This document shows positions 37,971 through 64,000 of a DNA stretch of 64,000 bases, in pieces. The notes under the pieces are model-generated. The model did not search any database, was not told where the DNA came from, and saw only the letters and a list, made by a program, of their open reading frames with translations. This stretch comes from a virus (taxonomy: Duplodnaviria > Caudoviricetes). The stretch spans positions 1-64,000 of IMG/VR virus record IMGVR_UViG_3300023105_001451; one strand, given 5' to 3'. The translations under genes were made by a program, and so were the position numbers. Position 1 is the stretch's first letter; every line of letters begins with the position of its first letter.

Positions 37971-37999
37971 TTGACAAAATCTTAAACTGAGTATATAAT
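37971..37999 (+). promoter_or_regulatory. Consensus sigma70 promoter at the start of the enzyme island
   Basis: TTGACA(37971-37976)-17 nt-TATAAT(37994-37999); GGAG RBS before ATG 38024. Confidence 0.8.
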
Positions 38000-38023: not shown

Positions 38024-38371
38024 ATGGACGAAAGATTAGAAAAAGCATTAGAATTTTCAAACTACATGACTACGCTAAACAATCAAAAGCGTATTATAAA
38101 AGAACAATTTTCCGAAAATTGTGTTCACTATCTCGACGGAGGCAAGTTTACAGTAAACAGAGAACTAATGACGTTTTGTCAAATGATTGTTAGCAGAGAA
38201 ATGACTAGTGCAGTTCTCATTGATGACAATGATACTCCTATCGAAATTAAGGATATGGTAAAATTCTTAGATGATATTATTGACATTTATTTTACAAAGT
38301 CGTATGAATACTTAGACAAGTATACAGAAATTAAAACAAACAGATCTGTCGAAGGTTTGATTAATATATGA
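38024..38371 (+). CDS. Hypothetical protein
   Basis: 115-aa ORF with RBS, first in a translationally coupled operon; no catalytic motif seen. Confidence 0.7.
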   Translation: MDERLEKALEFSNYMTTLNNQKRIIKEQFSENCVHYLDGGKFTVNRELMTFCQMIVSREMTSAVLIDDNDTPIEIKDMVKFLDDIIDIYFTKSYEYLDKYTEIKTNRSVEGLINI

Positions 38372-39222
38372 CCAGAGGTGTAGTACTATTTGCACAAAAC
38401 AATCATACTATAGATTATGTTAAACAAGCAATTTTTTGTGCTAAAAAAATTAAAAAGCATTTAGGGTTATCAGTAGCAATAGCAACTGATAATGTCTCCT
38501 ATCTTGAAAAAACATATCCGTATTATAAAAAATATTTCGATCATGTACTTTCTTTAGATTGGAAAGAGTGTACACAAAAAAGAATTTATCGAGACGGCAC
38601 AATGAGTGATAGAACACTTGAGTGGAGAAATCACGATAGAAGCACAGTATACGATATATCACCATATGACGAAACTATTGTAATGGATACCGATTTTATA
38701 GTCGGAAACTCTTTACTAAACAATGCTTTTGACACAGATGATGATTTTTTAATTTGTAGAGACATTGAAGATCTTAATCCAGAACGTGTAGAAAGTTTTG
38801 AAAAGATTAGCGACAGAAGTATTGATATGTATTGGGCTACTTTGTTTTATTTTAAGAAAACAGAACGAACAAAAGCGTTCTTTAATTTAGTTGAACATAT
38901 TAAAGAAAACTGGTTATATTATAGATTAGTTTATCAAATAGCAAATAAAACTTATAGAAATGATTTTAGTTTTAGTATTGCTATTCATTTAATGAACGGT
39001 AATCAAAAAACAAATTGGCCTAAAGCAATGCCTGGAAAATTATGGTTTACAACAGACAATGATGTATTAGTTAAAATGGACGATGAAAAATATGTATTTT
39101 TACTTGATAAAAAAGATTGGAAGGGTCATTACACATTATCGTCGATAGATAATACAAATATTCATGTAATGAATAAATTTAGTTTAGATAGAGCAATTAG
39201 CAAGGAGTTAGCAAATGAGTAA
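38368..39222 (+). CDS. GT-A fold glycosyltransferase (GT8-like)
   Basis: RGVVLFA N-terminus, SPYDETIVMDTD (DxD), YWATLFYF, RNDFSFSIA. Confidence 0.75.
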   Translation: MTRGVVLFAQNNHTIDYVKQAIFCAKKIKKHLGLSVAIATDNVSYLEKTYPYYKKYFDHVLSLDWKECTQKRIYRDGTMSDRTLEWRNHDRSTVYDISPYDETIVMDTDFIVGNSLLNNAFDTDDDFLICRDIEDLNPERVESFEKISDRSIDMYWATLFYFKKTERTKAFFNLVEHIKENWLYYRLVYQIANKTYRNDFSFSIAIHLMNGNQKTNWPKAMPGKLWFTTDNDVLVKMDDEKYVFLLDKKDWKGHYTLSSIDNTNIHVMNKFSLDRAISKELANE

Positions 39223-40057
39223 AGGATTTTGTTTGTTAGCTCAGAATAATGATAACACAAATTATGTACGCCAGGCATATGCACTTGCACTTAGTTTACA
39301 TAGATATAACACAGATCAAAAAATCAGTCTTATAACAAACGACAAAGTACCAGAAAGTTGGACACATGCGTTTGATAAAATTATTCCTATTCCGTGGCAA
39401 GATGATGCAAATGAACAAGATTGGAAAATAAACAATAGATGGAAGGTGTATCACGCAAGTCCTTATGAACAAACTATTGTACTTGAAGCAGATATGCTTG
39501 TTCTTAGCAATATAACACATTGGTGGAATGAATTAGAAAAATACGATGTATATTTTACAAGTAATGTAAACACGTATCGTAATGAAGTTGTTACTAGCAG
39601 ATATTATAGAAAAACTTTTGATGCAAACGAATTGCCGAATTTGTACAGTGCATTACATTATTTTAGAAAAGGCGATAAAGCAAAAGAATTTTACACCTTG
39701 TTAGAAATTGTAATGCAAAATTGGGAATTATTTTACAGTAAGTATGCAAAAGAAAGATACCAAAAGTGGTGTAGCGTTGACTTATGTGCAGCTATTGTAA
39801 GTAAAATTTTAGATAACGAAAAAGAAATAACAAATCCTAAAAGTTTTATTACGTTTACGCACATGAAACCACATGCTCAACGTTGGAAAAATGTTCCTGA
39901 AAAATGGACTAGTGTAATAGGAAAATACTATCGAAATGATGGTAACTTAATGTTAGGAAATTTTCTACAGTCTGGTTTATTGCACTATGTAGAGGACGAG
40001 TTTCTGACAGAAAAAATTATAGAGAAATTAGAAAATGGAACGCAAGTATTATCTTAA
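39215..40057 (+). CDS. GT-A fold glycosyltransferase (GT8-like), paralog
   Basis: KGFCLLAQN, FDKIIPIP, SPYEQTIVLEAD (ExD variant), FTHMK, LHYVE. Confidence 0.75.
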   Translation: MSKGFCLLAQNNDNTNYVRQAYALALSLHRYNTDQKISLITNDKVPESWTHAFDKIIPIPWQDDANEQDWKINNRWKVYHASPYEQTIVLEADMLVLSNITHWWNELEKYDVYFTSNVNTYRNEVVTSRYYRKTFDANELPNLYSALHYFRKGDKAKEFYTLLEIVMQNWELFYSKYAKERYQKWCSVDLCAAIVSKILDNEKEITNPKSFITFTHMKPHAQRWKNVPEKWTSVIGKYYRNDGNLMLGNFLQSGLLHYVEDEFLTEKIIEKLENGTQVLS

Positions 40058-40601
40058 TTTTAAAGAAGACGGCACAGTCTGGAAAGTATCTAATGTACTA
40101 GACGAAAGTTCTTTGTACATTAATATTTCTAAAGAACTTATGTACGATTTTGCAGAGTGTCGAAAGAGTATGGAAGATTTTATTGTCGTACCTAGCGATT
40201 CAGCTGACTCACAGTTTGAATTAAAGTCTAAACACACAAGTTTAGAAGATTTCGATGTTGATAAAAGTATACATCGATTACCGAAACATGATATTAATCA
40301 CAATCTAGTGTTTCACATTAAACAAAACGTATCCGAAGGAACCTGGAAAGCAAGCGTGTCTCCAGGTCTTAAATCGTTAATTAATAGCACAGCATATTAT
40401 AAGGATAAAGTGCATCGTCTTTTTGTTACCGACGAAGATGATCCTAATTTTTTATTAGATACACTAGAAGTAAATTTTTCTTCTGTAATGAATGGCGAAG
40501 CAATTATAGAAAATACAAAAAAAGAAGTTGCTCAAAGGAACGATGTGAGTGTATACTGTGGTAAAGCCTTTGAGAATTATAATCATATAGTGGAAGAATG
40601 A
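40035..40601 (+). CDS. Hypothetical protein
   Basis: 188-aa ORF coupled to its neighbours; no motif recognised. Confidence 0.65.
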   Translation: MERKYYLNFKEDGTVWKVSNVLDESSLYINISKELMYDFAECRKSMEDFIVVPSDSADSQFELKSKHTSLEDFDVDKSIHRLPKHDINHNLVFHIKQNVSEGTWKASVSPGLKSLINSTAYYKDKVHRLFVTDEDDPNFLLDTLEVNFSSVMNGEAIIENTKKEVAQRNDVSVYCGKAFENYNHIVEE

Positions 40602-41497
40602 TGTCAAAAATTAAAGTAATTGATCAAGATATTATATTTTTGTCCTACGACGAACCAAACGCAGAAAAAAACTATGCAGATTTGTGTAGTAAAATTCCTT
40701 GGGCAAAACGTGTACACGGAGTGCATGGTAGTGATGCCGCACACAAAGCATGTGCAGATTTGTCAGAAACAGAATATTTTGTTACTGTTGATGCAGACAA
40801 CATTATTGATCAAGAATTTCTTAATCAAGAAGTTGATATTGAGGAATTAGGTGTTACTCCAGAACATGTGTTTAGTTGGTGTGGCAAGGTACATGTTAAT
40901 GGACTTATGTACGGCAACGGCGGTCTTAAAATGTGGACACGTAAATTTGTCCACAATATGAAAACACACGAAAATAGCGAGGACGGCGATGAACGAGGAA
41001 AAGTTGAATTCTGCTTCGACAACAAATATTACCAATTTAACGAAAACTACAGCGTTTCTTATACTAATGCGACACCTTGGCAGGCTTGGCGGGCGGGCTT
41101 TCGCGAAGGTGTTAAGATGTCTTTGGATCAAGGAGCCAAAGTAGATGATTTGCGTACAGTATGGTGGCAAAACTATGATAGACTGCTTATATGGAGTCAG
41201 ATAGGTGCAGATGTTGAAAACGGTATATGGAGTATACTAGGCGCACGTCAAGGTTGCTACATGACAAACTGTACAGATTGGGACTATGCAAATGTGCGTG
41301 ACTTTGAATGGTTAAACAACTTTTGGGAAAGTGATGTAAAGGATTTACAACCTAACGAAGAAGCAGAACGTTTAGGTTTAGAAATACTTAAAGGCACAGG
41401 AGTAGATATTTCTACTAAACCTCTAGATGCAGAACAAAGTAAGTTTTTTAAACAAGTATATCAAAATAGCGCAAGAATTTTACGGAGAGCTAAATGA
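40598..41497 (+). CDS. GT-A (GT2-like) glycosyltransferase
   Basis: DIIFLSYDEPNA, RVHGVHGSDAAHKACA, FVTVDAD (DxD), YGNGGLK, AWRAGFREGVK; homologous to the C-terminal domain of 48556-50490. Confidence 0.75.
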   Translation: MMSKIKVIDQDIIFLSYDEPNAEKNYADLCSKIPWAKRVHGVHGSDAAHKACADLSETEYFVTVDADNIIDQEFLNQEVDIEELGVTPEHVFSWCGKVHVNGLMYGNGGLKMWTRKFVHNMKTHENSEDGDERGKVEFCFDNKYYQFNENYSVSYTNATPWQAWRAGFREGVKMSLDQGAKVDDLRTVWWQNYDRLLIWSQIGADVENGIWSILGARQGCYMTNCTDWDYANVRDFEWLNNFWESDVKDLQPNEEAERLGLEILKGTGVDISTKPLDAEQSKFFKQVYQNSARILRRAK

Positions 41498-41991
41498 ATG
41501 AAAACTTAAAAAAATGGAAGGCGTCTATCGATAACTTTTTTGGCTGGGTTAAAAAAACAGAACTAGTTGAATTAGAAGATATTGATGTATCAGAAGATCC
41601 AGTGCGCCCTGAGCTTGATGTAGAATGGCGCACAACCTTTAGCAGAAAAATTTATGGATTAAAGCACGAAGATGATATCGAAGGCATTGTATGTGTTGCA
41701 TATACAAACGATATACCGTCAAGCGTAAAAGAATTAGATTTAATGAGTCAAAATGCACATCTTAAACAAGATGCAGACACAGCAATAGCGTATACTATTT
41801 GGAGCCGTAAACGTGGTGCAGGAAAAGAACTAATATTTAAACTTGCAGAGCATATTAGAACTAAGCCTGAAATAAAATCTTTAGTAACACTATCACCACT
41901 TACACCTATGGCAACCCATTTTCATATACGCAACGGTGCAAAACAAATTGCAATACACAATACAACGCAGAATTTTAAATATCCCTTATGA
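41494..41991 (+). CDS. GNAT-fold protein resembling the malonyl-CoA decarboxylase catalytic domain
   Basis: AIAYTIWSRKRGAGKELI (acyl-CoA binding-like loop), LVTLSP motif, FH.RNGA. Confidence 0.55.
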   Translation: MNENLKKWKASIDNFFGWVKKTELVELEDIDVSEDPVRPELDVEWRTTFSRKIYGLKHEDDIEGIVCVAYTNDIPSSVKELDLMSQNAHLKQDADTAIAYTIWSRKRGAGKELIFKLAEHIRTKPEIKSLVTLSPLTPMATHFHIRNGAKQIAIHNTTQNFKYPL

Positions 41992-43370
41992 GTAACGAAC
42001 AACGTATAAAGATACTAGAAGAAAAGCGTGAAAAAATTAACAATGTTAGTTGTAGTTTCTGCACGGCTAAATGGCTACAAACTACGTTGTTACTGCAAAA
42101 TGGTTACAATCACAGTTGCCATCATCCTGCTCCGCACAAAATTCCTTTAGAAGAAATAGAAGCAGATCCTGCTGCATTGCACAACAGCCAATACAAAAAA
42201 GAACAAAGACTAAAAATGCTTACAGGCGAACGCCCTAGCGAATGTAGTTATTGTTGGAAAATTGAAGATTTAGATAAAACATATTTTTCAGATAGACACT
42301 ATAAAACATCAGATTGGTGGGCCTGGGATAGATTCGAAGAAATAGCATATAGCGATCCGGGCGAAAATGTTTATCCTAGTTACCTTGAAGTAAGTTTTTC
42401 AAACGCATGTAATTTTGCTTGTGCATATTGTTCACCGGAGATTAGCAGTAAGTGGATGGAAGATGTAAAACAAAATGGACCTTATCCTACTAAACATGGT
42501 GCCCATCATTTAGACTATTTAGAACAAACAGGAAAGATGCCGTATAAGAATAAAGACTATAATCCATATGTAGAGGCATTTTGGAAATGGTTTCCTGAAG
42601 CACTGCCACATTTAAAAGTCTTGCGTATTACAGGTGGCGAACCTACGATGTCAAAAGATACATGGAAACTGCTTGATTATCTAATCGAAAATCCACGTAA
42701 AGATTTAGATGTAGCAATTAATACAAACGGTTGTGTTGAAGATAAGCTCATTGATAAGCTAATAGATAAAATCAACAAGTTAGCTAAACTAGGTGTTAAG
42801 GTTGATGTATATACTAGTTTAGAGAGTACTGGTGAACAAGCAGAATACGCAAGAGATGGATTAAGTTATTATGCATGGATTGCTAATATTGAAAGAATTT
42901 TAAAAGAAACACAAAGCACAGTTGCTATAATGACAACTATTAATATTCTTAGTTTAACTACGTTTGTTGATTTTGTAATGACAGTAATGGATTTGCGCAA
43001 AATTTATAATACTAGTTTTGAACATAATAGAGTGCCAATGAGTATTAATACAATGCACTGGCCTCCGCACTTACAATGCACATTACTTGATAAAGAATAC
43101 CGTACTAAATTTGCTGATACTATCGAAAATGCTTGTAAAAGTTGGCTAAAGTACTATACTAAAGAAAAATATGCTAGAATATATTTAGAAGAATTCGACC
43201 AAATACAAAGATTTTGTGATTACTTGCGTACAACGGAGCCAGCAACAGAGCATAGAGCTGACTTTGTACGATACATACAAGCATACGATGAAAGAAGAAA
43301 CAAAGACTTTGTGGGAACTTTTCCACAATATGCACATTTGTTAGAGGAATGGAATGGCGAAAAAACCTGA
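41988..43370 (+). CDS. Radical SAM enzyme with N-terminal twitch-like domain (rSAM 1)
   Basis: SFCTAKW...SCHH...ECSYCW N-domain; CNFACAYC; ITGGEP; INTN. Confidence 0.9.
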   Translation: MSNEQRIKILEEKREKINNVSCSFCTAKWLQTTLLLQNGYNHSCHHPAPHKIPLEEIEADPAALHNSQYKKEQRLKMLTGERPSECSYCWKIEDLDKTYFSDRHYKTSDWWAWDRFEEIAYSDPGENVYPSYLEVSFSNACNFACAYCSPEISSKWMEDVKQNGPYPTKHGAHHLDYLEQTGKMPYKNKDYNPYVEAFWKWFPEALPHLKVLRITGGEPTMSKDTWKLLDYLIENPRKDLDVAINTNGCVEDKLIDKLIDKINKLAKLGVKVDVYTSLESTGEQAEYARDGLSYYAWIANIERILKETQSTVAIMTTINILSLTTFVDFVMTVMDLRKIYNTSFEHNRVPMSINTMHWPPHLQCTLLDKEYRTKFADTIENACKSWLKYYTKEKYARIYLEEFDQIQRFCDYLRTTEPATEHRADFVRYIQAYDERRNKDFVGTFPQYAHLLEEWNGEKT

Positions 43371-44802
43371 CGAAACATTACAGCAATATCGTGACAGGGT
43401 ATTAGACAGCAAAAGTAAAAGTTTTTGCGGAGCAAAGTGGTTTAATGCAACTACTTGGCTAGGCAGCGGCACGACTGCAAGTTGTCATCACCCGCCTGCA
43501 CATAAAATTCCAGTAGTAGAAGTTGAGGAAGATTATACTGCTATTCATAATACAAAGCATAAAAAAGAAATGCGCCGTATGATGCAAACAGGTGAACGTC
43601 CACGTGAGTGCGAATACTGTTGGAAAATGGAAGATATGAAAAAAGATGCTGTTAGTGACAGAACTTTTAAAAGTATTATCTATTCAGACGAAGAACTACA
43701 ACGTGCATACGAAATGGATCACAATGAAAGTGTTAATCTTAAGACGTTTGAAATTGCGTTTGATAGAACGTGTAATCTAGCTTGTTCATACTGTAATGCT
43801 TCTTTCTCAACAACATGGGCCAAAGACATCAAGAAACATGGCGAGTACACAAATCTTGTAAGCGATGGCGCAGGAGCATTCCGTCAAGACGGTAGTTGGA
43901 CACAGCCTTACAAAGATGATGAAGACAATCCCTACATTCAAGCATTTTGGAAATGGTGGGACAACGGCTTGTCAGACAGTCTAGAAGAACTACGCATTAC
44001 AGGCGGTGAGCCTTTGATGAGCGGAAACACTTGGAAACTGTTTGATTGGTTTGAAGCACAAGATAGTGATATGCGTTTTGCTATTAACAGCAATCTAATT
44101 GCTAAAAAAGATATTGTAGACAAACTAATTGCTAAAACACAAGGTATGAATCACTTTGAATTGTACACAAGTTGTGAAGCAGTAGGCGAACAAGCAGAAT
44201 ATATTCGTGATGGATTAGTGTATGAACAGTGGCTAACCAACATCAAACGTATTCTTACTGAAGCAAATACTAAAGGCGTACACATTATGATGACAATCAA
44301 CAGCCTTTGCTTGTTTAGTATTACAGAATTCTTAGATGAAGTATACAAATTAAAAGAACTTACACAAAGTAGAACACCTACTGTTAGTTTAAATTTACTG
44401 CGTTTTCCAAGTTTTCAGAGCCCACTAGCATTACCTAATCATATTAAAGATTATTGTCACGAAAAACTAAGCACTTGGTGGGAAGAAAACAAGCACAAGC
44501 CAGGTTGGCATGAGTTTGAACGTGCAAGTATTGAGCGACTAATAGATTATCTTGTTACTGTAGATGCTCCGCATCGTAGAACAAGTAACCCAGTTACACT
44601 TTGGCGTGACTTTAAAACATTTTATGCACAATACGATGTGCGTAGAAACAAAAGCATCTATGTTTTTCCAAAAATCCTAACAGATTGGGTAGAAAGTATT
44701 CCAGATACAGATGCAAGCATTATGGAACTTGCTGATAAAGAAGGCTGGATACTAAAACCTGACAACAAAAACATAGACGAACCGTTGGCGGCATATGACT
44801 GA
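43354..44802 (+). CDS. Radical SAM enzyme with N-terminal twitch-like domain (rSAM 2)
   Basis: SFCGAKW...SCHH...ECEYCW; CNLACSYC; ITGGEP; close paralog of rSAM 1. Confidence 0.9.
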   Translation: MAKKPDETLQQYRDRVLDSKSKSFCGAKWFNATTWLGSGTTASCHHPPAHKIPVVEVEEDYTAIHNTKHKKEMRRMMQTGERPRECEYCWKMEDMKKDAVSDRTFKSIIYSDEELQRAYEMDHNESVNLKTFEIAFDRTCNLACSYCNASFSTTWAKDIKKHGEYTNLVSDGAGAFRQDGSWTQPYKDDEDNPYIQAFWKWWDNGLSDSLEELRITGGEPLMSGNTWKLFDWFEAQDSDMRFAINSNLIAKKDIVDKLIAKTQGMNHFELYTSCEAVGEQAEYIRDGLVYEQWLTNIKRILTEANTKGVHIMMTINSLCLFSITEFLDEVYKLKELTQSRTPTVSLNLLRFPSFQSPLALPNHIKDYCHEKLSTWWEENKHKPGWHEFERASIERLIDYLVTVDAPHRRTSNPVTLWRDFKTFYAQYDVRRNKSIYVFPKILTDWVESIPDTDASIMELADKEGWILKPDNKNIDEPLAAYD

Positions 44803-48540: not shown

Positions 48541-48549
48541 GCGTATAAT
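48521..48549 (+). promoter_or_regulatory. Consensus sigma70 promoter giving a probably leaderless mRNA
   Basis: TTGACA(48521-48526)-17 nt-TATAAT(48544-48549); ATG at 48556 lies at the expected +1; no SD. Confidence 0.75.
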
Positions 48550-48555
48550 ACTATA

Positions 48556-58166: not shown

Positions 58167-59427
58167 AGAATTTAAACTCCGGATTCACACTAAAGAAGTC
58201 TTGCCCGCGAGTTTTATCTAATGCACGATTAAAGTTTATACAGTCTTGCCAATGTGTGTCGTACATACATTTTGCTTCTAAGAAATTAATATTATCTTGT
58301 ATTTGTTGTAATGTAACTGTTTTGAGCAACTCGTTTTCTTGTATAACAGCGTAATCAAGAATTTTAATTTGCATATCTTTTAAGTCACTAACAACCTTTT
58401 GTTTTAATTCTGGTGGTAGTGTTTGTGCAGACAGTGCCATAGGATAATTTACACGATGTGAATAAAATACAATGCCCATATCATTTAAGAAATAATCTAT
58501 AACATCACAGATTTGCATTATATTATTTGCTTGTACAGTAAACGCACCTACTACACGACTTACATTAGGAAATTCTTTAAACACCTTGATGTTCTCTTCT
58601 ATTTCTTCAAACTTGCCATTGCCTCTAATGTATTCATAGACATCGTGTATACCGTCTATGCTTACGTTTACAGCAATTGATTTAAACTTGGGCCAATAGT
58701 CATGTATAGTGCGTCCACCTTTTATGCCTAGTGTAGTACCGTTTGTAGCATACTTTATTTCTATATTTTCACCATATGGCGCAAGCATGTCTAGTATTTT
58801 ATAATGATAAGGATCCATTAATGGCTCGCCACCTGCAAACTCTACACGTCTAAAAAACGGTAGTAGTTTTTCAAAACTATTCCACCAGTTATCACTGTTG
58901 TCAAATGGACCTATATACTTGCCTGGTGTATCTGTAAGTTTGTCTATTATTGGAATAAGAATATTATCTTCTTTTTCGTAATATGGTTTTACTTCGTTCC
59001 AATCTTTCCAACTTGTGCTGTCTAAAGGATTACACATACGACATTTTAAATTACACAAGTTGTTAAGTTTAATTTCCATAGTAGGAATTTCAAATGGCAT
59101 TGCATAATCGTCGTCTAGTGCGTCTAGTGCGTTAGGATACAAGTTTATACGTGCTTCTGGTATAACTCCTGCTATATGACGTTGTCGTAAGCTCTGTACA
59201 CCCTGATCCTCTAAGTCAAAGCAAGGTTTGCATACTTCTGGACGCTCGTCATTTAATACTTGTCTGCGTACTTCACGCATGGTGTCGTTGTTCCATGCTT
59301 GTTCTAAAGTTTCGTCTTGTATGTAGCCAATAGGAGCACTGCGGCAGCAAACTTTAATTGCTCCGTCCTCTCGTGTAGCAAGTCCTGTAAAAGGATGCAT
59401 ACAGAATGTACAACTATTCGACTTCAC
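58159..59427 (-). CDS. Radical SAM enzyme with N-terminal twitch-like domain (rSAM 10)
   Basis: FCMHPF..KVCC...CKPC; CNLKCRMC; FAGGEP; YATNG; SIDG. Confidence 0.9.
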   Translation of the reverse strand: MKSNSCTFCMHPFTGLATREDGAIKVCCRSAPIGYIQDETLEQAWNNDTMREVRRQVLNDERPEVCKPCFDLEDQGVQSLRQRHIAGVIPEARINLYPNALDALDDDYAMPFEIPTMEIKLNNLCNLKCRMCNPLDSTSWKDWNEVKPYYEKEDNILIPIIDKLTDTPGKYIGPFDNSDNWWNSFEKLLPFFRRVEFAGGEPLMDPYHYKILDMLAPYGENIEIKYATNGTTLGIKGGRTIHDYWPKFKSIAVNVSIDGIHDVYEYIRGNGKFEEIEENIKVFKEFPNVSRVVGAFTVQANNIMQICDVIDYFLNDMGIVFYSHRVNYPMALSAQTLPPELKQKVVSDLKDMQIKILDYAVIQENELLKTVTLQQIQDNINFLEAKCMYDTHWQDCINFNRALDKTRGQDFFSVNPEFKFYV

Positions 59428-60088
59428 CTAACGCCCACTCCCGTTCTCTACACCAAAAGCATTCTCCGCATATTGGAACAGGGTTACCCGGTGTATATGT
59501 TTTATAATTCAAACCTTCAAACTCTCCTTCACAACTACGAGTAATGTCAAACAAATCTAGAATATCGTAATTATAGTATTGTTGTATAATCCAGTCTTTC
59601 TTAGTATACACGAAAGGATGCACAATGTCAACTCCCATATGTTTCATATGTAAAGGTAATACACCTTCATCTCGTTCGGGTAATCCGCCGGGTACGTCTT
59701 CTGGATTTTTAGTAACAGCAGCATACCATGCATCTAAGTTATAATTATGTATTACCCATTCGTTGTGAGCTCTAAGTATAATTCTATTGCCAGGTTTTAC
59801 TGCGCCGTATTCATCAGTAATAAAAGTTGTATTAGGTTCTTCCATTTCGGGCGGTATAAAGTTTTCTAAATGTTCTATACGATTAGGAAAATTATACTTA
59901 AACCATCTAACAACTTGCTGAGCAACATGACGCTGCCAAGGTCGTGTTTTCCACATTCGTATTTGTGTAGTAAAATAAATGTCTGCATTAGTTTCTTTTA
60001 ATATAAGATATGCTAGTAAAGCACTGTCTGCTCCGCCGCTTAAACTAATACCTATACGCTTCCACCCAGGATTCAAGAACAAGTTCAT
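59414..60088 (-). CDS. QueC-like PP-loop (adenine nucleotide alpha-hydrolase) ATPase
   Basis: ISLSGGADS PP-loop; PFV..KK; C-terminal TRSC...CGECFWCRER zinc motif as in 7-cyano-7-deazaguanine synthase. Confidence 0.7.
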   Translation of the reverse strand: MNLFLNPGWKRIGISLSGGADSALLAYLILKETNADIYFTTQIRMWKTRPWQRHVAQQVVRWFKYNFPNRIEHLENFIPPEMEEPNTTFITDEYGAVKPGNRIILRAHNEWVIHNYNLDAWYAAVTKNPEDVPGGLPERDEGVLPLHMKHMGVDIVHPFVYTKKDWIIQQYYNYDILDLFDITRSCEGEFEGLNYKTYTPGNPVPICGECFWCREREWALGEVE

Positions 60089-60093
60089 GCTTA

Positions 60094-60110
60094 TACTTAT
60101 TCGTTAAATA
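60094..60110. promoter_or_regulatory. Back-to-back divergent late-promoter-like hexamers
   Basis: TAAGTA (minus, 60099-60094) and TAAATA (plus, 60105-60110), each exactly 5 nt from its ATG, in a 27-nt gap. Confidence 0.6.
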
Positions 60111-60115
60111 TCTGT

Positions 60116-60769
60116 ATGCTAGAGAGAACTGAATATACTGTAAAAGTTCCTAAAATTAACGAAGATTTTGAAAATTTTAAAACTACGTTAAATCAGCCAA
60201 CTGGAGATTTTTTCTACGATCCGTGGGAAATTAAACCAGAGTATAAAGGAACAGTTTGGGAAAAATTGCTTAAGAGCTTGCCTGAGCCTCACGGCGAAGC
60301 TCGTGTAATTGTAATGCAACCTGGTACTACTTATATGGCTCATGCTGATATTGATAATCGTTGGCATCTAAATTTACAAAGCGAACAGGCTTATCTAATT
60401 AATTTAGTTTCTCAAGATATGCATTTATTAGAAAAAGACGGATACTGGTATTATATGGATGCAGGAAATATACACACTGCGTCAAACTATGGTAGTATTC
60501 CTAGAATACAGTTAGTTGTAAGAGAACTATTAACAGCAACAGAAATAGAAGAACTTGCACAAGTTACAATTAAACCGGCAATGCCGCAATATGATTATAG
60601 ATATAAATTTGACAATATAATTAGCCCATGGCTTAATACTGCTAATAAAGATGGTGTTATAAAAGATTTTGAGGTTGACGGCGAAGTTGTTAAATTTAAA
60701 ATACCAATTACAGAATTAAGTTTAAAATTGCCAAAGGAGTTTCGCATTGAAGTGGAAACCATATCTTAA
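60116..60769 (+). CDS. 2OG-Fe(II) oxygenase (aspartyl/asparaginyl beta-hydroxylase-like)
   Basis: AHAD (HxD), RWHL, IHTASNYG..PRIQLVV (distal His and 2OG-binding Arg). Confidence 0.75.
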   Translation: MLERTEYTVKVPKINEDFENFKTTLNQPTGDFFYDPWEIKPEYKGTVWEKLLKSLPEPHGEARVIVMQPGTTYMAHADIDNRWHLNLQSEQAYLINLVSQDMHLLEKDGYWYYMDAGNIHTASNYGSIPRIQLVVRELLTATEIEELAQVTIKPAMPQYDYRYKFDNIISPWLNTANKDGVIKDFEVDGEVVKFKIPITELSLKLPKEFRIEVETIS

Positions 60770-61421
60770 ACTAAGCGAAGAAGGCAATCCGTGCATGGCT
60801 CAACAAACTTACGAGCCTTTAGTTAGTGAAGACGGAAAAACTTTCTGTAAAAATTATGCTTGGCCGAATGATTATCAATATATGGAAACAAAAGATCGTC
60901 CGTTATATACTGACGAAGTTGTTGAATGGTTTTGGTTTAATGAACTTACTTATTTAGAGGTCTTTAAAGATAAACCTTACGCACCTGAAGTTACTGATAT
61001 TGATTATGTTAACAGAAAAATATATCTTAAATGGAATGAGGCAAGTTGTAATCAAATAATTTATAGTGGGCTGCCTTGGCCGCAAAATGTTTGGCGTCAA
61101 CAAATTAAAGATATTATGCTTGACATTTACAATGAGGGCGTATATAAATTAACAATGTATCCTCACTGTCATTATATAAGCAGTGAAGGAAACATGCGAG
61201 CAATTGACTGGTACGGATGTGTACCTGTTGAAGAGCCTTACATCGAAGAAAAATATATGCAAGGCATAATTCATGAAACTGCTCAATTTCGTTTAGAAGA
61301 AACAGGTGCAGCGGTAGACAATGTTTTAAATTTAGAGACTATGTTTAAGAGAAGTTTAGGCACTCATGTAAAATGGGGAGACCAAGATATGAGCTACATA
61401 TACAAGGAAATTTTTAAATGA
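60747..61421 (+). CDS. Protein-kinase-like / phosphotransferase fold protein
   Basis: FCK lysine, NE..YL helix Glu, YAPEV, IDWYG (DFG-like); the catalytic loop is atypical (YKLTMYPH). Confidence 0.45.
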   Translation: MKWKPYLKLSEEGNPCMAQQTYEPLVSEDGKTFCKNYAWPNDYQYMETKDRPLYTDEVVEWFWFNELTYLEVFKDKPYAPEVTDIDYVNRKIYLKWNEASCNQIIYSGLPWPQNVWRQQIKDIMLDIYNEGVYKLTMYPHCHYISSEGNMRAIDWYGCVPVEEPYIEEKYMQGIIHETAQFRLEETGAAVDNVLNLETMFKRSLGTHVKWGDQDMSYIYKEIFK

Positions 61422-62275
61422 ATATTGTAGTGTTTGGACATAGTATTGGATTAGACGACGGAGTTCAAGAAGATCATTGGACTCGTTATTTAGAAAAAAG
61501 ACTTAGTACAAATGTAGTTAATAAATGTGTAGCACAATGTAGCGAAGAACGCATTTTGTTTAATTTGAAAAAAACAAAAAATATTGATTTGGCAATAATT
61601 ATTCATACTCCTCCTTGGGCAATATTTGTTCCAACATGGGACAGAGACATACAAAACGTAGACAAGGATAGTTTTAATAGTAAAGTTGATATTTTAAAAT
61701 TTTTAGATAGTGCAGGAATTACAGGTACTGAAGAAATAGATGAAGCTGTTGATTGGTATTCCGTAGTATCTAACGGAATGATACAAGAATTGTTTAAACG
61801 CTATGGTATTGAATTTGAAGAGATGACTCCTGGTATACAAGAGTTTTTAGATAATGGAAATACTACAATTATTAAACAAGAATTTTTAGAACTAGTTGAA
61901 AAGAGTAAAGGAGATGTAGAATACTATAATAGTTTATTTGATGCATTAACTTTATTTAGAAAACATTTATATCATCCGGATTTGGCAATGAATAGATATT
62001 ACGGAGCTCTAATACAAATTGATCAATATATAACAGCAATGAATATACCGTGTATTCATTTGCTAGATAATCCTGCTTGGTATCCTAAATGGTTTAAATT
62101 TACATCAGGTATTGTTGATACAGAATTACAAAAAACAAAACGAGAAACAGGACCTTATTATGTTGGGTATAATAAATCCTGTAATGCATTAAACAAGGAA
62201 GGTAACGAACTAATATATAATAAAATAGTTGAATTGGCTGCGGGGGCAGGATTCGAACCTGCATTCACGAGTTAA
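61418..62275 (+). CDS. SGNH/GDSL-like protein
   Basis: IVVFGHS (block I), W...L.......VN..V...S (block II); the block V His is not evident. The C-terminus runs into the antisense strand of the tRNA. Confidence 0.5.
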   Translation: MNIVVFGHSIGLDDGVQEDHWTRYLEKRLSTNVVNKCVAQCSEERILFNLKKTKNIDLAIIIHTPPWAIFVPTWDRDIQNVDKDSFNSKVDILKFLDSAGITGTEEIDEAVDWYSVVSNGMIQELFKRYGIEFEEMTPGIQEFLDNGNTTIIKQEFLELVEKSKGDVEYYNSLFDALTLFRKHLYHPDLAMNRYYGALIQIDQYITAMNIPCIHLLDNPAWYPKWFKFTSGIVDTELQKTKRETGPYYVGYNKSCNALNKEGNELIYNKIVELAAGAGFEPAFTS

Positions 62276-62311
62276 CCGCCCGCTGCTTTACCAACTGTTA
62301 GCTACCCCGAC
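62235..62311 (-). tRNA. tRNA-Asn(GTT)-like gene, non-canonical
   Basis: Minus strand: D arm GCT-AACAGTTGGTAA-AGC, anticodon arm GCGGG-CGGTTAA-CTCGT, T arm GCAGG-TTCGAAT-CCTGC, 3' CCCCGCA-G-CCA. Only 5 of 7 acceptor pairs form contiguously, and position 33 is G. Confidence 0.7.
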
Positions 62312-62349
62312 TTCCGGAATGGGTCATAAGACTCCGTAGACCGGCATAT

Positions 62350-62357
62350 TATTTATA
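62350..62357 (-). promoter_or_regulatory. T4-consensus late promoter TATAAATA for the tRNA-like RNA
   Basis: Plus-strand TATTTATA at 62350-62357 is TATAAATA on the minus strand, directly upstream of the hairpin and tRNA. Confidence 0.6.
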
Positions 62358-62370
62358 GAAGGAAAATGAA

Positions 62371-62946
62371 TTGGCAACGTATTTAGGAACAACAGACGGC
62401 ATCATTGACTGGGATCCTATTGTAGAGATTTGTAAGGATTGTACAACAGGAGACTACAATTCAGTTAAATCAGTTGTTGAACGATCTGAAGGCAATTGGC
62501 GTGATAATCCAGAGCTACTAGGAAGGTACCATGAGATTATTAATACCTGGGATGATGCTGGATATAACTTAGAAGAAATTGAATGGTGGGACTATTATCC
62601 CGGTGAACATTTTGATATAGAAATACAAAACAAATTTGCAAAAATAGTAAATGCAGAACCGTTAAGAGTTTTTGTAAGTGATGTACGTCCTGGAACAAAC
62701 GTACCATATCATTGGGACGTTGAAGACAATGAAGAAGAATGGTTAGCACAAGGAGAACTAAAACGCTGGGTTTGCTTTATGGATAAGCCTCGCTGGGGTA
62801 GTGTGTTAATATTAGAAGACAAAGCATTTCATAATGTGCCACAAGGTGAAATATGGGAATGGGATAATTACAGAAGTTATCACGCAGGAACAAGTTGCGG
62901 TATACATCATCAATATTTGTTTCATTTTTTAGGGAGACCCAAATAA
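62371..62946 (+). CDS. 2OG-Fe(II) oxygenase (cupin/DSBH fold)
   Basis: PG..VPYHWD (HxD), YHAGTSCG; TTG start with AAGGA RBS. Confidence 0.7.
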   Translation: MATYLGTTDGIIDWDPIVEICKDCTTGDYNSVKSVVERSEGNWRDNPELLGRYHEIINTWDDAGYNLEEIEWWDYYPGEHFDIEIQNKFAKIVNAEPLRVFVSDVRPGTNVPYHWDVEDNEEEWLAQGELKRWVCFMDKPRWGSVLILEDKAFHNVPQGEIWEWDNYRSYHAGTSCGIHHQYLFHFLGRPK

Positions 62947-63476
62947 TGGTAAGAAGCATTGGAGTATGTAACACAATCAACTGGGATGCAGTAATTAAAG
63001 ACTGCGAAAATTCAAATCCTGAGTATGTAGGACCTAGTCATAAGCGTGGAGATAATATACCTGGTTTAGATCCTATATTAGACATGTGGGAAGAAGCAGG
63101 ATATAAAACTGTACACGAAGGTGGAACTGCTGGATGGGATATGTTTATTCCAGGTAAACAATTTGACACAAGCATAGTAGATGCTTGGAACGAACACTAC
63201 AATTTAGACTGTAAAAATGTTTGGATAAGCAGAGTATGGCCCGGACGGTTTGCTCCTATACATTGGGACGTACACGATGACGAAGAAAACTTACCCGAAT
63301 GTGCAAGATATCACTCGCATATTGGTAAGCCTCAGTGGGGACATATTTTTATTGTAGACGATAAATGTTTGTATAATAGAACACAAGGTGAAACGTTTAG
63401 ATGGGAAAATAGAAAATTATGGCATGCAGGAACTAACTGTGGTACAACACCTAAATATATATGGAATGCTTGGTAA
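62946..63476 (+). CDS. 2OG-Fe(II) oxygenase, paralog of the preceding gene
   Basis: PGRFAPIHWD, WHAGTNCG. The likely start is ATG 62946 (TAATG overlap, GGAG RBS); the ORF track starts it at 62895. Confidence 0.7.
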   Translation: MVRSIGVCNTINWDAVIKDCENSNPEYVGPSHKRGDNIPGLDPILDMWEEAGYKTVHEGGTAGWDMFIPGKQFDTSIVDAWNEHYNLDCKNVWISRVWPGRFAPIHWDVHDDEENLPECARYHSHIGKPQWGHIFIVDDKCLYNRTQGETFRWENRKLWHAGTNCGTTPKYIWNAW

Positions 63477-63485
63477 GGAGAAAAG

Positions 63486-64000
63486 ATGGAAAAAGTATTA
63501 TCAGAGATGCCTAGAATATCAGTTTTTACTGATGTACTTACAGATGAAGAATCAGATTACTATGTAAAAAAATACAGTGAACTAGGAATGAATCCTGATG
63601 CAGGATTAGAATCACGAGAGCAAACAAATGGGCAAATCACAGAAGAAGTAGAACAGCGTAGTATTAGCTGGGATACTGATAACGAAGATAGAGAGTTTTT
63701 TAAAAAACGTCTTGCAGAAACAGTTGGATTTCCGATTGAACATATAGAAGCAGGCGATATTTATAGATATCAACCTGGACAGTATTTTGGTCTGCATCAC
63801 GACTTTCCTTACACTCCAGAAGAAATTGCATATTATGAAAAAGGTGGTGACAGAAAAGCAACAGGTATTTTTTGGTTAACAGGTGACTTCGAAGGCGGTA
63901 CTTGTGATTTTCCTGAACTAGATGTATCAGTAAAGCCTGTAAAAAATGGTATGTTTTATTTTGAATATGACTACGAAGATGAAGCAATTAATCAGTCAAC
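63486..64000 (+). CDS. Prolyl 4-hydroxylase-like 2OG-Fe(II) oxygenase (3' truncated by the window edge)
   Basis: Not in the ORF track; translated by hand from ATG 63486 (AAGGAG RBS): PRISVFTDVLTDEE...YRYQPGQYFGLHHD...GDRKAT...FEGGTCDFPELDVSVKP, open to the window end. Confidence 0.8.
   Translation, partial: MEKVLSEMPRISVFTDVLTDEESDYYVKKYSELGMNPDAGLESREQTNGQITEEVEQRSISWDTDNEDREFFKKRLAETVGFPIEHIEAGDIYRYQPGQYFGLHHDFPYTPEEIAYYEKGGDRKATGIFWLTGDFEGGTCDFPELDVSVKPVKNGMFYFEYDYEDEAINQS

What the first reader, a model, noticed from the sequence alone, without database searches (positions are those of the whole stretch)
38024..64000. A ~26-kb phage tailoring-enzyme island (10 radical SAM enzymes, glycosyltransferases, oxygenases) directly behind the tail-fibre genes
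Seen: ten CxxxCxxC radical SAM genes, four GT-A glycosyltransferases plus one possible GT, a GNAT-fold protein, a methyltransferase, a QueC-like ATPase, a kinase-like and an SGNH-like protein, and four 2OG-Fe(II) oxygenases. Most are joined by overlapping stop/start codons, immediately after the baseplate and fibre operon. Established: twitch-type radical SAM enzymes such as BtrN oxidise sugar-like substrates, and GT8/GT2 enzymes transfer nucleotide sugars. Inference: this is a phage-encoded assembly line that builds and then chemically tailors a glycan. The target could be virion fibres or baseplate, phage DNA bases (anti-restriction hypermodification) or the host surface (superinfection exclusion). 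I know of no characterised phage pathway with this composition.
Basis: partly seen in the sequence, partly recalled or inferred. Interest (0 to 1): 0.9.

Follow-up and report, generated by a model that had tools for sequence, protein, structure and literature searches.

The report
Jumbo-phage radical-SAM sugar-tailoring island
An uncultured marine giant phage devotes about 43 kb, right behind its tail-fibre genes, to soluble sugar-transferring enzymes, 16 iron-sulfur radical SAM enzymes and about ten iron oxygenases; they most likely build and chemically edit an unusual sugar decoration, but its product and target have never been measured.

Summary
The window holds ten intact CxxxCxxC radical SAM genes. 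The island runs on past the window end to about 81.3 kb of the 123.5-kb contig, giving 16 radical SAMs and about 49 genes, mostly overlapping. Eight radical SAMs belong to NCBIfam NF033640 (N-terminal twitch), which has no close solved structure; I found no paper characterising it. The glycosyltransferase claims have no Pfam support but hold at fold level: 39215 (paralogue 38368) has a GT8/glycogenin-like fold, and 48556 (paralogue 40598) has a GT-A domain. UDP-glucose-dehydrogenase-like and SDR genes belong to the island and sit inside its conserved core in a close relative. All island proteins are predicted soluble. dN/dS is 0.05-0.21. Four related jumbo-phage contigs keep the order baseplate, fibres, GT8 pair, radical SAM island (7-22 radical SAMs). 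The cultured Ralstonia phage RsoM2USA has an eight-gene syntenic version.

Best reading: a cytoplasmic nucleotide-sugar tailoring and transfer pathway. The acceptor is unproven; virion proteins are the leading candidate. The BtrN analogy is weak. Consensus sigma-70 promoters head the first two operons.

Similar islands were noted in passing in three papers (PMC7029224, PMC5332604, PMC2853527). This scan has already flagged and followed up the same kind of island in at least 63 other genomes.

The parts
37971..37999 (+). Consensus sigma-70-type promoter (TTGACA-17-TATAAT, 12/12), 24 nt before the first island gene
   Evidence: Conserved at 11/12 in relative L100.
38024..38371 (+). 115-aa protein of unknown function at the head of the island
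   Evidence: No Pfam or PHROG hit. 33% identical to RsoM2USA ORF354 in the same position.
38368..39222 (+). GT8-like glycosyltransferase paralogue (DTD motif)
   Evidence: Paralogue of 39215 (alignment). 37% identical to RsoM2USA ORF353.
39215..40057 (+). GT8/glycogenin-like fold glycosyltransferase
   Evidence: AF2 pLDDT 88.9. Foldseek PDB top hits are glycogenin, LgtC, UGGT and GlyE at E about 1e-8. Viral GT8/GT34-like neighbours. 1912 homologues, none with a Pfam domain.
40035..40601 (+). 188-aa protein, unknown function
   Evidence: No family hit. A gene of similar size (ORF351) sits at the same position in RsoM2USA.
40598..41497 (+). GT-A-like transferase (VDAD motif), paralogue of the C-terminal domain of 48556
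   Evidence: 46% identical to RsoM2USA ORF350.
41494..41991 (+). GNAT-fold-like protein (malonyl-CoA decarboxylase C-terminal domain hit)
   Evidence: Pfam PF05292, E 1.5e-7, 31.7 bits against a cut-off of 23.2.
41988..47276 (+). Four tandem N-terminal-twitch radical SAM genes (41988-43370, 43354-44802, 44795-46105, 46068-47276)
   Evidence: NF033640 at 300-346 bits against a cut-off of 170. CX3CX2C at about residue 140. Best Bdellovibrionota matches: 36-53% identity for three of them, and 33-38% for 41988, weaker than to its paralogue 43354. 41988 is 45% identical to RsoM2USA ORF349.
47209..48540 (+). 443-aa protein, unknown function
   Evidence: No family hit.
48521..48549 (+). Second consensus sigma-70-type promoter (12/12), 6 nt before 48556
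   Evidence: A 12/12 site also precedes the orthologue in L043.
48556..50490 (+). 644-aa protein: four degenerate ~100-aa copies of a GT-A-like half-domain, then a complete GT-A domain (residues 416-644, DGD motif)
   Evidence: AF2 pLDDT 93.8. Foldseek and VIA hits to B4GALNT1, ThuS, WrtF, SpsA and IspD, Z 9-11.6. Repeat alignment. 1316 homologues, some up to about 1800 aa with many repeats.
50471..51535 (+). Radical SAM with no N-terminal twitch. Nearest named families are the tungsten-cofactor maturase and BlsE (cytosylglucuronate decarboxylase), both far below cut-off
   Evidence: Present in 65 of 80 related loci.
51504..52493 (+). Short (~300 aa) radical SAM, class B
   Evidence: Present in 72 of 80 loci.
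52483..53088 (+). Class-I methyltransferase-like protein (GGWNG motif), always next to the 53085 radical SAM
   Evidence: 80 of 80 loci. Weak Pfam methyltransferase hits. Virus-only clusters whose nearest named neighbours are methyltransferases. 32% identical to RsoM2USA ORF347.
53085..54485 (+). N-terminal-twitch radical SAM, the most conserved core member
   Evidence: NF033640 at 388 bits. More than 3200 homologues in metagenomes. 80 IMG/VR loci.
54443..55396 (+). Short radical SAM, class B
55373..56473 (-). 366-aa protein, unknown function; virus-only family
56470..57369 (-). Short radical SAM, class B
   Evidence: Present in 74 of 80 loci.
57357..58166 (-). 269-aa protein, unknown function
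58159..59427 (-). N-terminal-twitch radical SAM
   Evidence: NF033640 at 322 bits.
59414..60088 (-). PP-loop ATP pyrophosphatase, QueC-like layout (SGGADS plus four invariant Cys)
   Evidence: Present in 57 of 80 loci.
60089..60115 (.). Divergent 27-bp junction with TAAGTA-N5-ATG on one strand and TAAATA-N5-ATG on the other (late-type boxes)
60116..60769 (+). Aspartyl/asparaginyl beta-hydroxylase-like Fe(II)/2OG oxygenase
   Evidence: Pfam PF05118, 24.1 bits against a cut-off of 22.6.
60747..61421 (+). Protein-kinase-fold-like protein (weak)
   Evidence: Profile against PDB: Bud32/PRPK and Ser/Thr kinases, E 0.006-0.07.
61418..62275 (+). 285-aa protein; possible SGNH-like (N-terminal FGHS motif only)
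   Evidence: no family hit.
62235..62311 (-). tRNA-Asn (GTT) embedded in the island
   Evidence: ARAGORN.
62371..63476 (+). Two paralogous cupin/2OG-like proteins (62371-62946, 62895-63476) with an invariant HxD...H
   Evidence: No Pfam or PDB sequence hit.
63486..64000 (+). 2OG-Fe(II) oxygenase (P4H-type); the ORF ends at 64082, beyond the window
   Evidence: Pfam PF13640, 26 bits against a cut-off of 27; ORF end.

Best explanation
The island is a cytoplasmic pathway made only of soluble enzymes. It takes nucleotide sugars, edits them heavily, and transfers the product with GT8-like and GT-A-like transferases.

Proposed steps:
1. A UDP-glucose-dehydrogenase-like enzyme and SDR epimerase/dehydratases supply precursors such as uronic or 4-keto sugars.
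2. Sixteen radical SAM enzymes do oxygen-independent C-H chemistry (oxidation, epimerisation, decarboxylation, deoxygenation, C-methylation). They comprise eight N-terminal-twitch, six short, one BlsE-like and one B12-dependent C-methyltransferase-like enzyme.
3. About ten Fe(II)/2OG-type oxygenases, a methyltransferase-like, a PP-loop (QueC-like), a kinase-like and a GNAT-like protein add hydroxyl, methyl, amide, phosphate or acyl groups.
4. The transferases attach the result to an acceptor inside the infected cell.

The most likely acceptor is the phage's own virion proteins encoded just upstream (fibres and the 5333-aa protein).

Shown: gene content, folds, conservation, synteny and solubility.
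Inferred: that the radical SAMs act on sugars, the order of steps, and the acceptor.

My odds: sugar or glycan product about 0.55-0.6; virion acceptor given that, about half.
For: - GT8-like and GT-A-like folds.
- Nucleotide-sugar dehydrogenase-like and SDR genes at the island's end. Both lie inside the conserved core, between the 51504-like radical SAM and the methyltransferase-like gene, in relative L099.
- An SDR epimerase directly precedes an N_Twi radical SAM array in a Bdellovibrionales genome.
- RsoM2USA keeps an eight-gene minimal set right after MS-confirmed virion genes: small protein, two GT8-like, a 188-aa-type gene, GT-A, N_Twi radical SAM, GT-A, methyltransferase-like (PMC8504454).
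- The order baseplate wedge, fibres, GT8 pair, radical SAM island holds in all 4 long relatives that contain the wedge.
- No island protein has a predicted transmembrane helix, and no Pfam or NCBIfam hit to a flippase, polymerase or polyprenyl-phosphate transferase. This fits a cytoplasmic acceptor.
- dN/dS is 0.05-0.21 for 21 genes.
- Gene content is hypervariable between relatives (7-22 radical SAMs), as expected for a host-interaction trait.
- The B12 radical SAM resembles KedN5-type C-methyltransferases.
Against: - No radical SAM here has a characterised close relative. NF033640 has no close solved structure.
- In two of three Bdellovibrionota contexts the N_Twi arrays sit among housekeeping genes (tsaD-ksgA-smpB; def, leuS) with no sugar genes.
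- SPASM/twitch radical SAMs and AspH/P4H-type oxygenases more often modify peptides or proteins.
- The first two operons carry perfect sigma-70 promoters like those of the replication module, not the ATAAATA boxes that precede the fibre genes. This weakens a strict 'made with the virion' argument.
- Synteny with the fibres could simply be inherited gene order within one phage lineage.
- No glycan, modified protein or modified base has been measured in any of these phages.
Confidence: 0.4

Rival explanations
1. Host-envelope remodelling. The enzymes alter host LPS, capsule or lipid on the cytoplasmic face early in infection, to block superinfection or change the cell surface. This is the role proposed for glycosyltransferases in pelagimyophage host-recognition clusters.
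For: - Consensus sigma-70 promoters head the first two operons, the same class as before the replication genes.
- The GT8 fold is typical of LPS enzymes such as LgtC.
- The AspH family (PF05118) also contains the lipid A hydroxylase LpxO (my own knowledge).
- Relatives carry two FA_desaturase genes inside the island.
- This is the published interpretation for pelagimyophages (PMC7029224).
Against: - All 49 island proteins lack predicted transmembrane helices.
- There is no Pfam or NCBIfam hit to a flippase, polymerase, ligase or polyprenyl-phosphate transferase.
- The position next to the fibres is conserved from marine phages to a soil Ralstonia phage whose host has a very different envelope.
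Confidence: 0.15
2. Protein-level post-translational modification. The radical SAMs and AspH/P4H-like oxygenases act directly on amino-acid residues of virion proteins (epimerisation, cross-links, hydroxylation, C-methylation, in a proteusin/RiPP-like way), and the transferases only add sugars on top.
For: - The nearest named relatives of the radical SAMs are mostly peptide maturases (PapB, YhhB, DynA, StsB, anSME), although far below cut-off.
- The PDB profile's best hit is the CteB peptide maturase.
- There are AspH-like and P4H-type oxygenases.
- GT-A hits include the peptide S-glycosyltransferases ThuS and SunS.
- The island adjoins a 5333-aa virion protein and the fibres.
Against: - No PqqD/RRE domain was detected in any radical SAM.
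- There is no room for a small precursor gene, since the junctions overlap.
- The fibres have no collagen-like repeats.
- The sugar-nucleotide genes are embedded in the radical SAM core in L099.
- Bdellovibrionota arrays have no obvious partner protein.
Confidence: 0.15
3. Nucleobase, nucleoside or DNA hypermodification, or a diffusible nucleoside/aminoglycoside-like small molecule. The QueC-like PP-loop protein plus radical SAM pairs and the transferases build a modified base or sugar-nucleoside, for anti-restriction or host takeover.
For: - The PP-loop protein with a QueC-like Cys layout lies next to an N_Twi radical SAM in 57 of 80 loci.
- KVP40 also has a QueC-like gene beside two distant N_Twi-like radical SAMs.
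- No canonical QueC lies in the 123.5-kb contig, while another reader reports folE, queD, queE and TGT genes downstream.
- The promoters are of the early-like sigma-70 type.
- There is BlsE-like and KedN5-like similarity.
Against: - The QueC hit is below the cut-off (17 against 22 bits), and KVP40's QueC-like protein is not BLAST-similar to 59414.
- No Pfam or NCBIfam hit to a DNA-binding, base-exchange or hydroxymethylase domain in the island.
- A separate deazaguanine module, noted by another reader but not checked here, may already cover DNA modification.
- No Pfam-detectable exporter or self-resistance gene is present.
Confidence: 0.15
4. Auxiliary metabolic genes. The radical SAMs boost or redirect host cofactor or Fe-S metabolism, as suggested for Campylobacter phages CP220/CPt10 and for marine EVGs, with no single product.
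For: Published suggestions in PMC2853527 and PMC5332604.
Against: - The genes form tight operons with conserved internal order, together with transferases and tailoring enzymes.
- No hit reaches the cut-off of any cofactor-biosynthesis family.
Confidence: 0.05

Closest known systems
NCBIfam NF033640, N_Twi_rSAM (twitch domain-containing radical SAM protein)
   Same: Eight island proteins score 190-388 bits against a cut-off of 170. They share an N-terminal four-Cys twitch-like domain, then CX3CX2C and GGEP motifs.
   Different: The family is only a catalogue entry. No member has a close solved structure, and my literature searches found no paper characterising it, so membership gives no function.
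Host-recognition cluster (HRC) of pelagimyophages and cyanomyophages (Zaragoza-Solas et al. 2020, PMC7029224)
   Same: A large hypervariable region beside the tail-fibre genes that holds GT8-type glycosyltransferases, UDP-glucose dehydrogenase, AspH-like genes and radical SAM cassettes.
   Different: That description is for T4-like phages of about 150-200 kb. This phage is an RsoM2USA/Rak2-type jumbo phage (baseplate wedge about 35% identical; CheckV rates the contig 33% complete). The radical SAM load is far larger (16; 22 in a relative). The HRC function was only guessed (O-chain modification).
Ralstonia phage RsoM2USA ORF346-354 (MG752970; PMC8504454)
   Same: Same gene order directly after virion genes. 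ORF354, 353, 352, 350, 349, 348 and 347 match 38024, 38368, 39215, 40598, 41988, the C-terminal domain of 48556, and 52483 at 32-46% identity.
   Different: It has only one N_Twi radical SAM at this locus, no oxygenase block, and every gene is annotated 'hypothetical protein'. Nothing has been tested.
Radical-SAM-rich Campylobacter phages CP220/CPt10 (Timms et al. 2010, PMC2853527) and the T4-like marine EVG with 12 radical SAM genes (Nishimura et al. 2017, PMC5332604)
   Same: Phages with about a dozen radical SAM genes, partly in an exchangeable module, of unknown function.
   Different: No Campylobacter phage matched N_Twi queries by tblastn. Those papers interpret the genes as metabolic or Fe-S related, with no link to fibres or glycosyltransferases.
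BtrN / BlsE / DesII-type radical SAM enzymes acting on sugars
   Same: Radical SAM core plus an auxiliary Fe-S (twitch) domain. 50471 and the family profile have weak similarity to BlsE.
   Different: The twitch domain is N-terminal here, not C-terminal. The similarity is generic (BtrN E 0.008, twitch domain only; BlsE 41 bits against a cut-off of 400). The substrate is unknown.
Virus-encoded virion glycosylation (mycobacteriophage capsid/tail glycosylation; Mimivirus fibril and chlorovirus glycan machinery) - from my own knowledge
   Same: A virus encodes its own transferases and sugar-nucleotide enzymes next to structural genes.
   Different: As far as I know, none of those systems uses radical SAM enzymes, let alone 16. 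No glycan has been shown for this phage group.

Membership tests
NF033640 N_Twi_rSAM | Score above the curated cut-off (170 bits) across the full-length model | tested here: met
   41988, 43354, 44795, 46068, 53085 and 58159(-) score 300-388 bits. 66319(-) and 73962 score 190 and 197 bits.
NF033640 N_Twi_rSAM | Cys-rich twitch-like domain N-terminal to the CX3CX2C radical SAM core | tested here: met
   Invariant C27, C46, C102 and C105 precede C160/C164/C167 in the 8-paralogue alignment. The Pfam SPASM hit covers residues about 10-90, ahead of Radical_SAM.
Radical SAM superfamily | CX3CX2C cluster motif and a Pfam PF04055 hit | tested here: met
   All 10 in-window genes and 6 beyond the window carry the motif. 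75328(-) has the motif and paralogy but no PF04055 hit.
Glycosyltransferase family 8 (CAZy GT8) | GT-A fold resembling glycogenin/LgtC | tested here: met
   39215 model, pLDDT 88.9. Foldseek E 1e-8 to glycogenin, TM 0.47-0.53.
Glycosyltransferase family 8 (CAZy GT8) | Sequence-profile membership (Pfam Glyco_transf_8) | tested here: not met
   No Pfam hit for 38368 or 39215 even at E<=10. None of 120 listed homologues carries a Pfam domain. They are therefore GT8-like in fold, not filed as GT8.
Glycosyltransferase family 8 (CAZy GT8) | DxD metal/nucleotide-sugar motif after the fourth strand | tested here: inconclusive
   38368 has DTD. 39215 has EAD, where many homologues have DAD or DVD; the second Asp is invariant.
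GT-A fold nucleotide-diphospho-sugar transferases (GT2-like) | Rossmann-like GT-A domain with a DxD motif | tested here: met
   48556 residues 416-576 score Z 9-11.6 to B4GALNT1, ThuS, WrtF and SpsA, but also to IspD cytidylyltransferases. Motifs DGD (48556) and DAD (40598).
GT-A fold nucleotide-diphospho-sugar transferases (GT2-like) | Glycosyl-transfer activity | not testable with these tools
   Needs an enzyme assay. The fold is shared with nucleotidyltransferases.
Pelagi-/cyanomyophage host-recognition cluster (PMC7029224) | Hypervariable block beside the tail fibres with GTs, LPS-type sugar genes and radical SAM cassettes | tested here: met
   description.
Pelagi-/cyanomyophage host-recognition cluster (PMC7029224) | Carried by T4-like pelagi- or cyanomyophages | tested here: not met
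   The baseplate wedge matches Atu_ph07, SCTP-2, GAP32 and Rak2-type jumbo phages at about 35%, not pelagi- or cyanophages. Island genes match only RsoM2USA among isolates.
BtrN-type twitch radical SAM dehydrogenases | C-terminal twitch domain and significant sequence similarity to BtrN | tested here: not met
   The twitch domain is N-terminal. The only BtrN match is E 0.0084, covering the twitch segment.
RiPP radical SAM/SPASM maturases | RRE/PqqD recognition domain and an adjacent precursor peptide gene | tested here: inconclusive
   No PqqD/RRE hit. Overlapping junctions leave no obvious precursor gene. Small overlapping ORFs were not searched systematically.
QueC (7-cyano-7-deazaguanine synthase) | PP-loop SGGxDS and a C-terminal four-Cys zinc site | tested here: met
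   Invariant S17 G18 G19 D21 S22 and C186, C207, C210, C213 in 17 homologues.
QueC (7-cyano-7-deazaguanine synthase) | Score above the Pfam PF06508 gathering cut-off | tested here: not met
   17.2 bits against 22, covering the C-terminal 74 residues only. The six-frame family search of the contig finds nothing.

The most novel reading that the evidence does not exclude
These aquatic jumbo phages coat their own fibres or giant virion protein with a glycan whose sugars are diversified by a rapidly swapping set of radical SAM and Fe/2OG enzymes. This would be a virus-encoded, radical-chemistry 'glycan wardrobe' that tunes host recognition or shields the virion. It would also reveal the first function and new sugar chemistry for the very large, unstudied N-terminal-twitch radical SAM family.
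Probability: 0.28. Interest if true: 0.88.

Novelty: new variant of a known kind. Interest (0 to 1): 0.74.

Why it matters
- If the product is a virion glycan, this would be the first radical-SAM-built glycan in any virus. It would also be a new layer of host-range or defence-evasion variation in abundant ocean phages.
- The N-terminal-twitch radical SAM family has thousands of members in metagenomes, eight in this phage and arrays in predatory Bdellovibrionota, and no known reaction. Any substrate assignment would open new enzymology.
- Sixteen oxygen-labile Fe-S enzymes sit beside about ten oxygen-requiring oxygenases in a surface-water phage, which is itself a puzzle.
- A cultured phage, RsoM2USA, carries a minimal eight-gene version, so the question can be tested directly.

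Tried and rejected
- **DNA similarity to isolates.** Megablast of 20 kb of the island against 50,697 phage records found nothing. tblastn of the 905-aa ORF at 111885-114602 also found nothing.
- **PHROGs.** Ten unannotated island proteins gave one weak hit.
- **Pfam at E<=10.** Gave no GT, kinase or SGNH hit for the claimed proteins.
- **Profile searches against PDB sequences.** Nothing usable for the methyltransferase-like, PP-loop, GT-A-like, 55373 and cupin-like families.
- **ESM Atlas.** Returned only virus-only unnamed clusters for 52483 and 55373.
- **Paralogue alignment as a locus query.** It was too divergent to use.
- **'Relatives' search.** Not available for a virus record.
- **Collagen-like acceptor idea** (P4H plus GT, as in Mimivirus). 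Rejected: the fibres and the giant protein have no GXY runs.
- **Viperin-like reading of the short radical SAMs.** Rejected: hits of 24-48 bits against a cut-off of 180, covering only the cluster-binding N-terminus.
- **Pseudogenisation.** Rejected: frames are intact and dN/dS is 0.05-0.21.
- **Recent foreign insertion.** Not supported: GC of 0.30-0.40 is like the rest of the contig, and the position is conserved in relatives.
- **Bacterial context of N_Twi arrays.** Not diagnostic: housekeeping neighbours in two genomes, an epimerase plus an arginase-fold gene in one.

Full report
**Context.** The window is the first 64 kb of a 123.5-kb IMG/VR viral contig that CheckV rates 33% complete, which implies a jumbo phage of about 350 kb. 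Upstream of the finding lie SbcCD-like genes, a baseplate hub and wedge, a 5333-aa ORF and several fibre-like genes. The baseplate wedge is about 35% identical to those of Atu_ph07, SCTP-2, GAP32 and related 350-490-kb myoviruses. 'Jumbo' is therefore right, and 'T4-like' holds only loosely.

**Observation.**
- All ten claimed radical SAM genes exist, with CX3CX2C motifs and Pfam or NCBIfam support.
- Gene junctions are almost all overlaps.
- The island does not stop at 64000. Six more radical SAMs follow, with three further AspH-like proteins, a TauD-family dioxygenase, more HxD...H proteins, a B12-binding radical SAM, a nucleotide-sugar dehydrogenase-like gene and an SDR epimerase/dehydratase. 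The island ends at about 81283, where a fibre-like gene with an Mtd_N domain lies on the other strand.
- The real unit is therefore about 43 kb, about 49 genes and 16 radical SAMs, bracketed by fibre genes.

**Radical SAM classes.** All-against-all BLAST and NCBIfam give four classes:
- Eight N-terminal-twitch enzymes of NF033640 (190-388 bits against a cut-off of 170). Four invariant Cys lie ahead of the CX3CX2C motif.
- Six short enzymes of about 300 aa, with only generic similarity to other families.
- One enzyme (50471) nearest to the tungsten-cofactor maturase and BlsE, but far below their cut-offs.
- One KedN5-like B12 C-methyltransferase-type enzyme, also below its cut-off.

A profile of the eight N_Twi paralogues finds no close solved structure. 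The best PDB hits are CteB, BlsE, MoaA and viperin at E 1e-10 to 1e-6, over the core only. BtrN matches at E 0.008, over the twitch segment only.

**Glycosyltransferase claims.** Pfam finds no GT even at E<=10. I spent both structure predictions on this question.
- 39215 was folded with 24 homologues (pLDDT 88.9). Its top PDB matches are glycogenin, LgtC, the UGGT catalytic domain and GlyE (E about 1e-8, TM about 0.5). Its viral matches include annotated GT8/GT34-type proteins. 38368 is its paralogue.
- 48556 (pLDDT 93.8) consists of four degenerate copies of a ~100-aa half-domain followed by a full GT-A domain. Residues 416-576 score Z 9-11.6 to B4GALNT1, ThuS, WrtF and SpsA, and also to IspD-type nucleotidyltransferases. 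40598 is a paralogue of that domain.
- 'Four GT-A-type proteins' is thus supported at fold level. Family membership by sequence is not.

**Other assignments.**
- The GNAT-like call rests on a Pfam MCD hit.
- The methyltransferase call rests on weak hits and a GGWNG motif.
- The QueC-like call rests on a PP-loop and four conserved Cys, with a sub-threshold Pfam score.
- The kinase-like call rests on an E 0.006 profile hit.
- The SGNH call rests on a motif only.
- The 62371/62895 oxygenases rest on an invariant HxD...H.

**Conservation.**
- The 53085-type radical SAM has more than 3200 homologues in metagenomes and 80 IMG/VR loci.
- tblastn of all island proteins against those loci shows a core present in 57-80 of 80 loci: 50471, 51504, 52483, 53085, 54443, 56470, 58159 and 59414. 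The oxygenase and kinase-like genes are present in about half.
- Five long relatives carry 7, 7, 11, 15 and 22 radical SAM hits.
- In all four relatives that include the baseplate wedge, the order is wedge, then about 25 kb, then the GT8-like pair, then the radical SAM block.
- Twenty-one island genes have dN/dS of 0.05-0.21 against orthologues.

**Clues to the substrate.**
1. In a close relative (L099) the dehydrogenase-like and SDR genes sit inside the core, between the 51504-like radical SAM and the methyltransferase-like gene.
2. One cultured phage, Ralstonia phage RsoM2USA, has the same head of the island in the same order, directly after virion genes. ORF354 to ORF347 match 38024, 38368, 39215, 40598, 41988, the C-terminal domain of 48556, and 52483 at 32-46% identity, with ORF351 sitting where 40035 does. 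ORF361, 359 and 356 are MS-confirmed virion proteins (PMC8504454).
3. Bdellovibrionota genomes carry tandem arrays of N_Twi genes. Their best matches to 43354, 44795 and 46068 are 36-53% identical; matches to 41988 are 33-38% and weaker than to its paralogue 43354. In one genome an SDR epimerase and an arginase-fold gene precede the array. In two others the neighbours are housekeeping genes. This context is therefore not decisive.
4. None of the 49 island proteins has a predicted transmembrane helix, and no Pfam or NCBIfam hit points to export or polymerisation machinery. This fits a cytoplasmic acceptor better than an autonomous surface-polysaccharide pathway.
5. Relatives also carry FA_desaturase genes in the island, a reminder that lipid substrates are not excluded.

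**Transcription signals.**
- Eight perfect TTGACA-N16-17-TATAAT sites occur in the contig, against about 0.3 expected by my own rough estimate from base composition.
- Seven lie 6-137 nt before gene starts. Two of them head the island's first two plus-strand operons (37971 and 48521).
- The eighth (79009) lies inside the 3' end of the B12 radical SAM gene, a little under 200 nt upstream of a further oxygenase-like ORF.
- The other perfect sites precede non-structural genes of the replication region.
- The entry promoter is conserved in marine relatives.
- The fibre genes are preceded instead by ATAAATA boxes. The second half of the island uses TAAATA or TAAGTA boxes 5 nt before the ATG at divergent junctions.
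- By analogy with T4, from my own knowledge, this suggests that part of the island is transcribed by unmodified host polymerase, possibly early. That is compatible with slow maturation of Fe-S enzymes, but it weakens a simple 'late, with the virion' argument. The timing is an inference.

**Literature.**
- Zaragoza-Solas et al. 2020 describe a hypervariable host-recognition cluster next to the fibres of pelagimyophages, with GT8 transferases, UDP-glucose dehydrogenase and radical SAM cassettes. They guess at O-chain modification.
- Nishimura et al. 2017 note a T4-like marine genome with 12 radical SAM genes.
- Timms et al. 2010 note 11-12 radical SAM genes in Campylobacter phages. Those phages do not match N_Twi queries.
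- KVP40-type vibriophages hold two distant N_Twi-like genes next to a QueC-like gene.
- None of these papers reports a product.

**Earlier notes of this scan.** They describe the same kind of island in at least 63 other genomes, with follow-ups that reached the same closest-known families and the RsoM2USA lead. I reached NF033640, the Bdellovibrionota arrays, the HRC paper and RsoM2USA from my own searches before reading those notes. The Campylobacter paper was a lead from them.

**Verdict.**
- The best reading is a soluble nucleotide-sugar tailoring and transfer pathway. I put a sugar product at about 0.55-0.6. Virion proteins are the leading but unproven acceptor, which puts the full statement at about 0.4.
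- The rivals are envelope remodelling, direct protein modification, and nucleobase or small-molecule synthesis, at about 0.15 each. A diffuse metabolic role is at about 0.05.
- The island is a new, extreme variant of a gene-island type that has been noticed but never characterised.

Noticed in passing
window 13688-29689 (+): A single 5333-aa ORF between the baseplate wedge and the fibre genes. It has patchy similarity to RsoM2USA ORF361, an MS-confirmed virion protein of more than 288 kDa. The orthologue in a relative has faint TIG and CBM_5_12 hits. It is a candidate acceptor for the island's product.
   Followed up: partly
window 37971-37999, 48521-48549, 4455-4483(-); contig 79009, 85647, 104210, 110473, 121699: Eight perfect TTGACA-N16/17-TATAAT promoters in 123.5 kb (my rough expectation is about 0.3). 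Seven lie 6-137 nt before gene starts. Fibre genes instead have ATAAATA boxes. This suggests two clean promoter classes in this phage.
   Followed up: partly
window 60089-60115; contig 68148-68174 and 71849-71854: Very short divergent junctions in which TAAATA or TAAGTA lies 5 nt before the ATG on both strands, with no Shine-Dalgarno sequence. They may give leaderless late-type mRNAs, as other readers of this genome noted.
   Followed up: partly
window 62235-62311 (-): ARAGORN calls an ordinary 77-nt tRNA-Asn(GTT) inside the island, overlapping the 3' end of ORF 61418-62275. Another reader proposed a split acceptor stem with a 35-nt insertion. I did not examine that.
   Followed up: partly
L093/L096, L087, L094/L097 (Bdellovibrionota genomes): Predatory-bacteria chromosomes carry tandem arrays of 2-5 N-terminal-twitch radical SAM genes, up to about 53% identical to particular phage paralogues. 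The arrays sit among housekeeping genes (tsaD-ksgA-smpB; def, leuS) or after an SDR and an arginase-fold gene. The direction of transfer and the function are unknown.
   Followed up: partly
L084-L086 6270-7816: Close relatives carry two adjacent FA_desaturase-family genes inside the same island. This contig lacks them.
   Followed up: no
L101 (Vibrio phage KVP40, KVP40.0258-0261): The cultured phage KVP40 has a QueC-like gene, a PF04095-type gene and two distant N_Twi-like radical SAM genes side by side, next to nadV. It could be a second cultured model for part of the core.
   Followed up: partly
window 48556-50490; homologues P0361-P0366: The GT-A-like domain family forms proteins of up to about 1800 aa, with up to 12 matched stretches of the degenerate half-domain repeat. 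This is an unusual repeat architecture for a transferase fold.
   Followed up: no
contig 79198-79683 (L001 15198-15683): An extra ORF of about 160 aa with an HKD...H motif fills the apparent 414-nt gap before the dehydrogenase-like gene. My ORF filter had missed it.
   Followed up: no
whole 123.5-kb contig: No canonical QueC (PF06508) is present, although another reader reports folE, queD, queE and TGT-type genes at about 92-106 kb. The missing step may lie in the unsequenced two thirds of the genome, or the PP-loop protein 59414(-) may supply it.
   Followed up: partly
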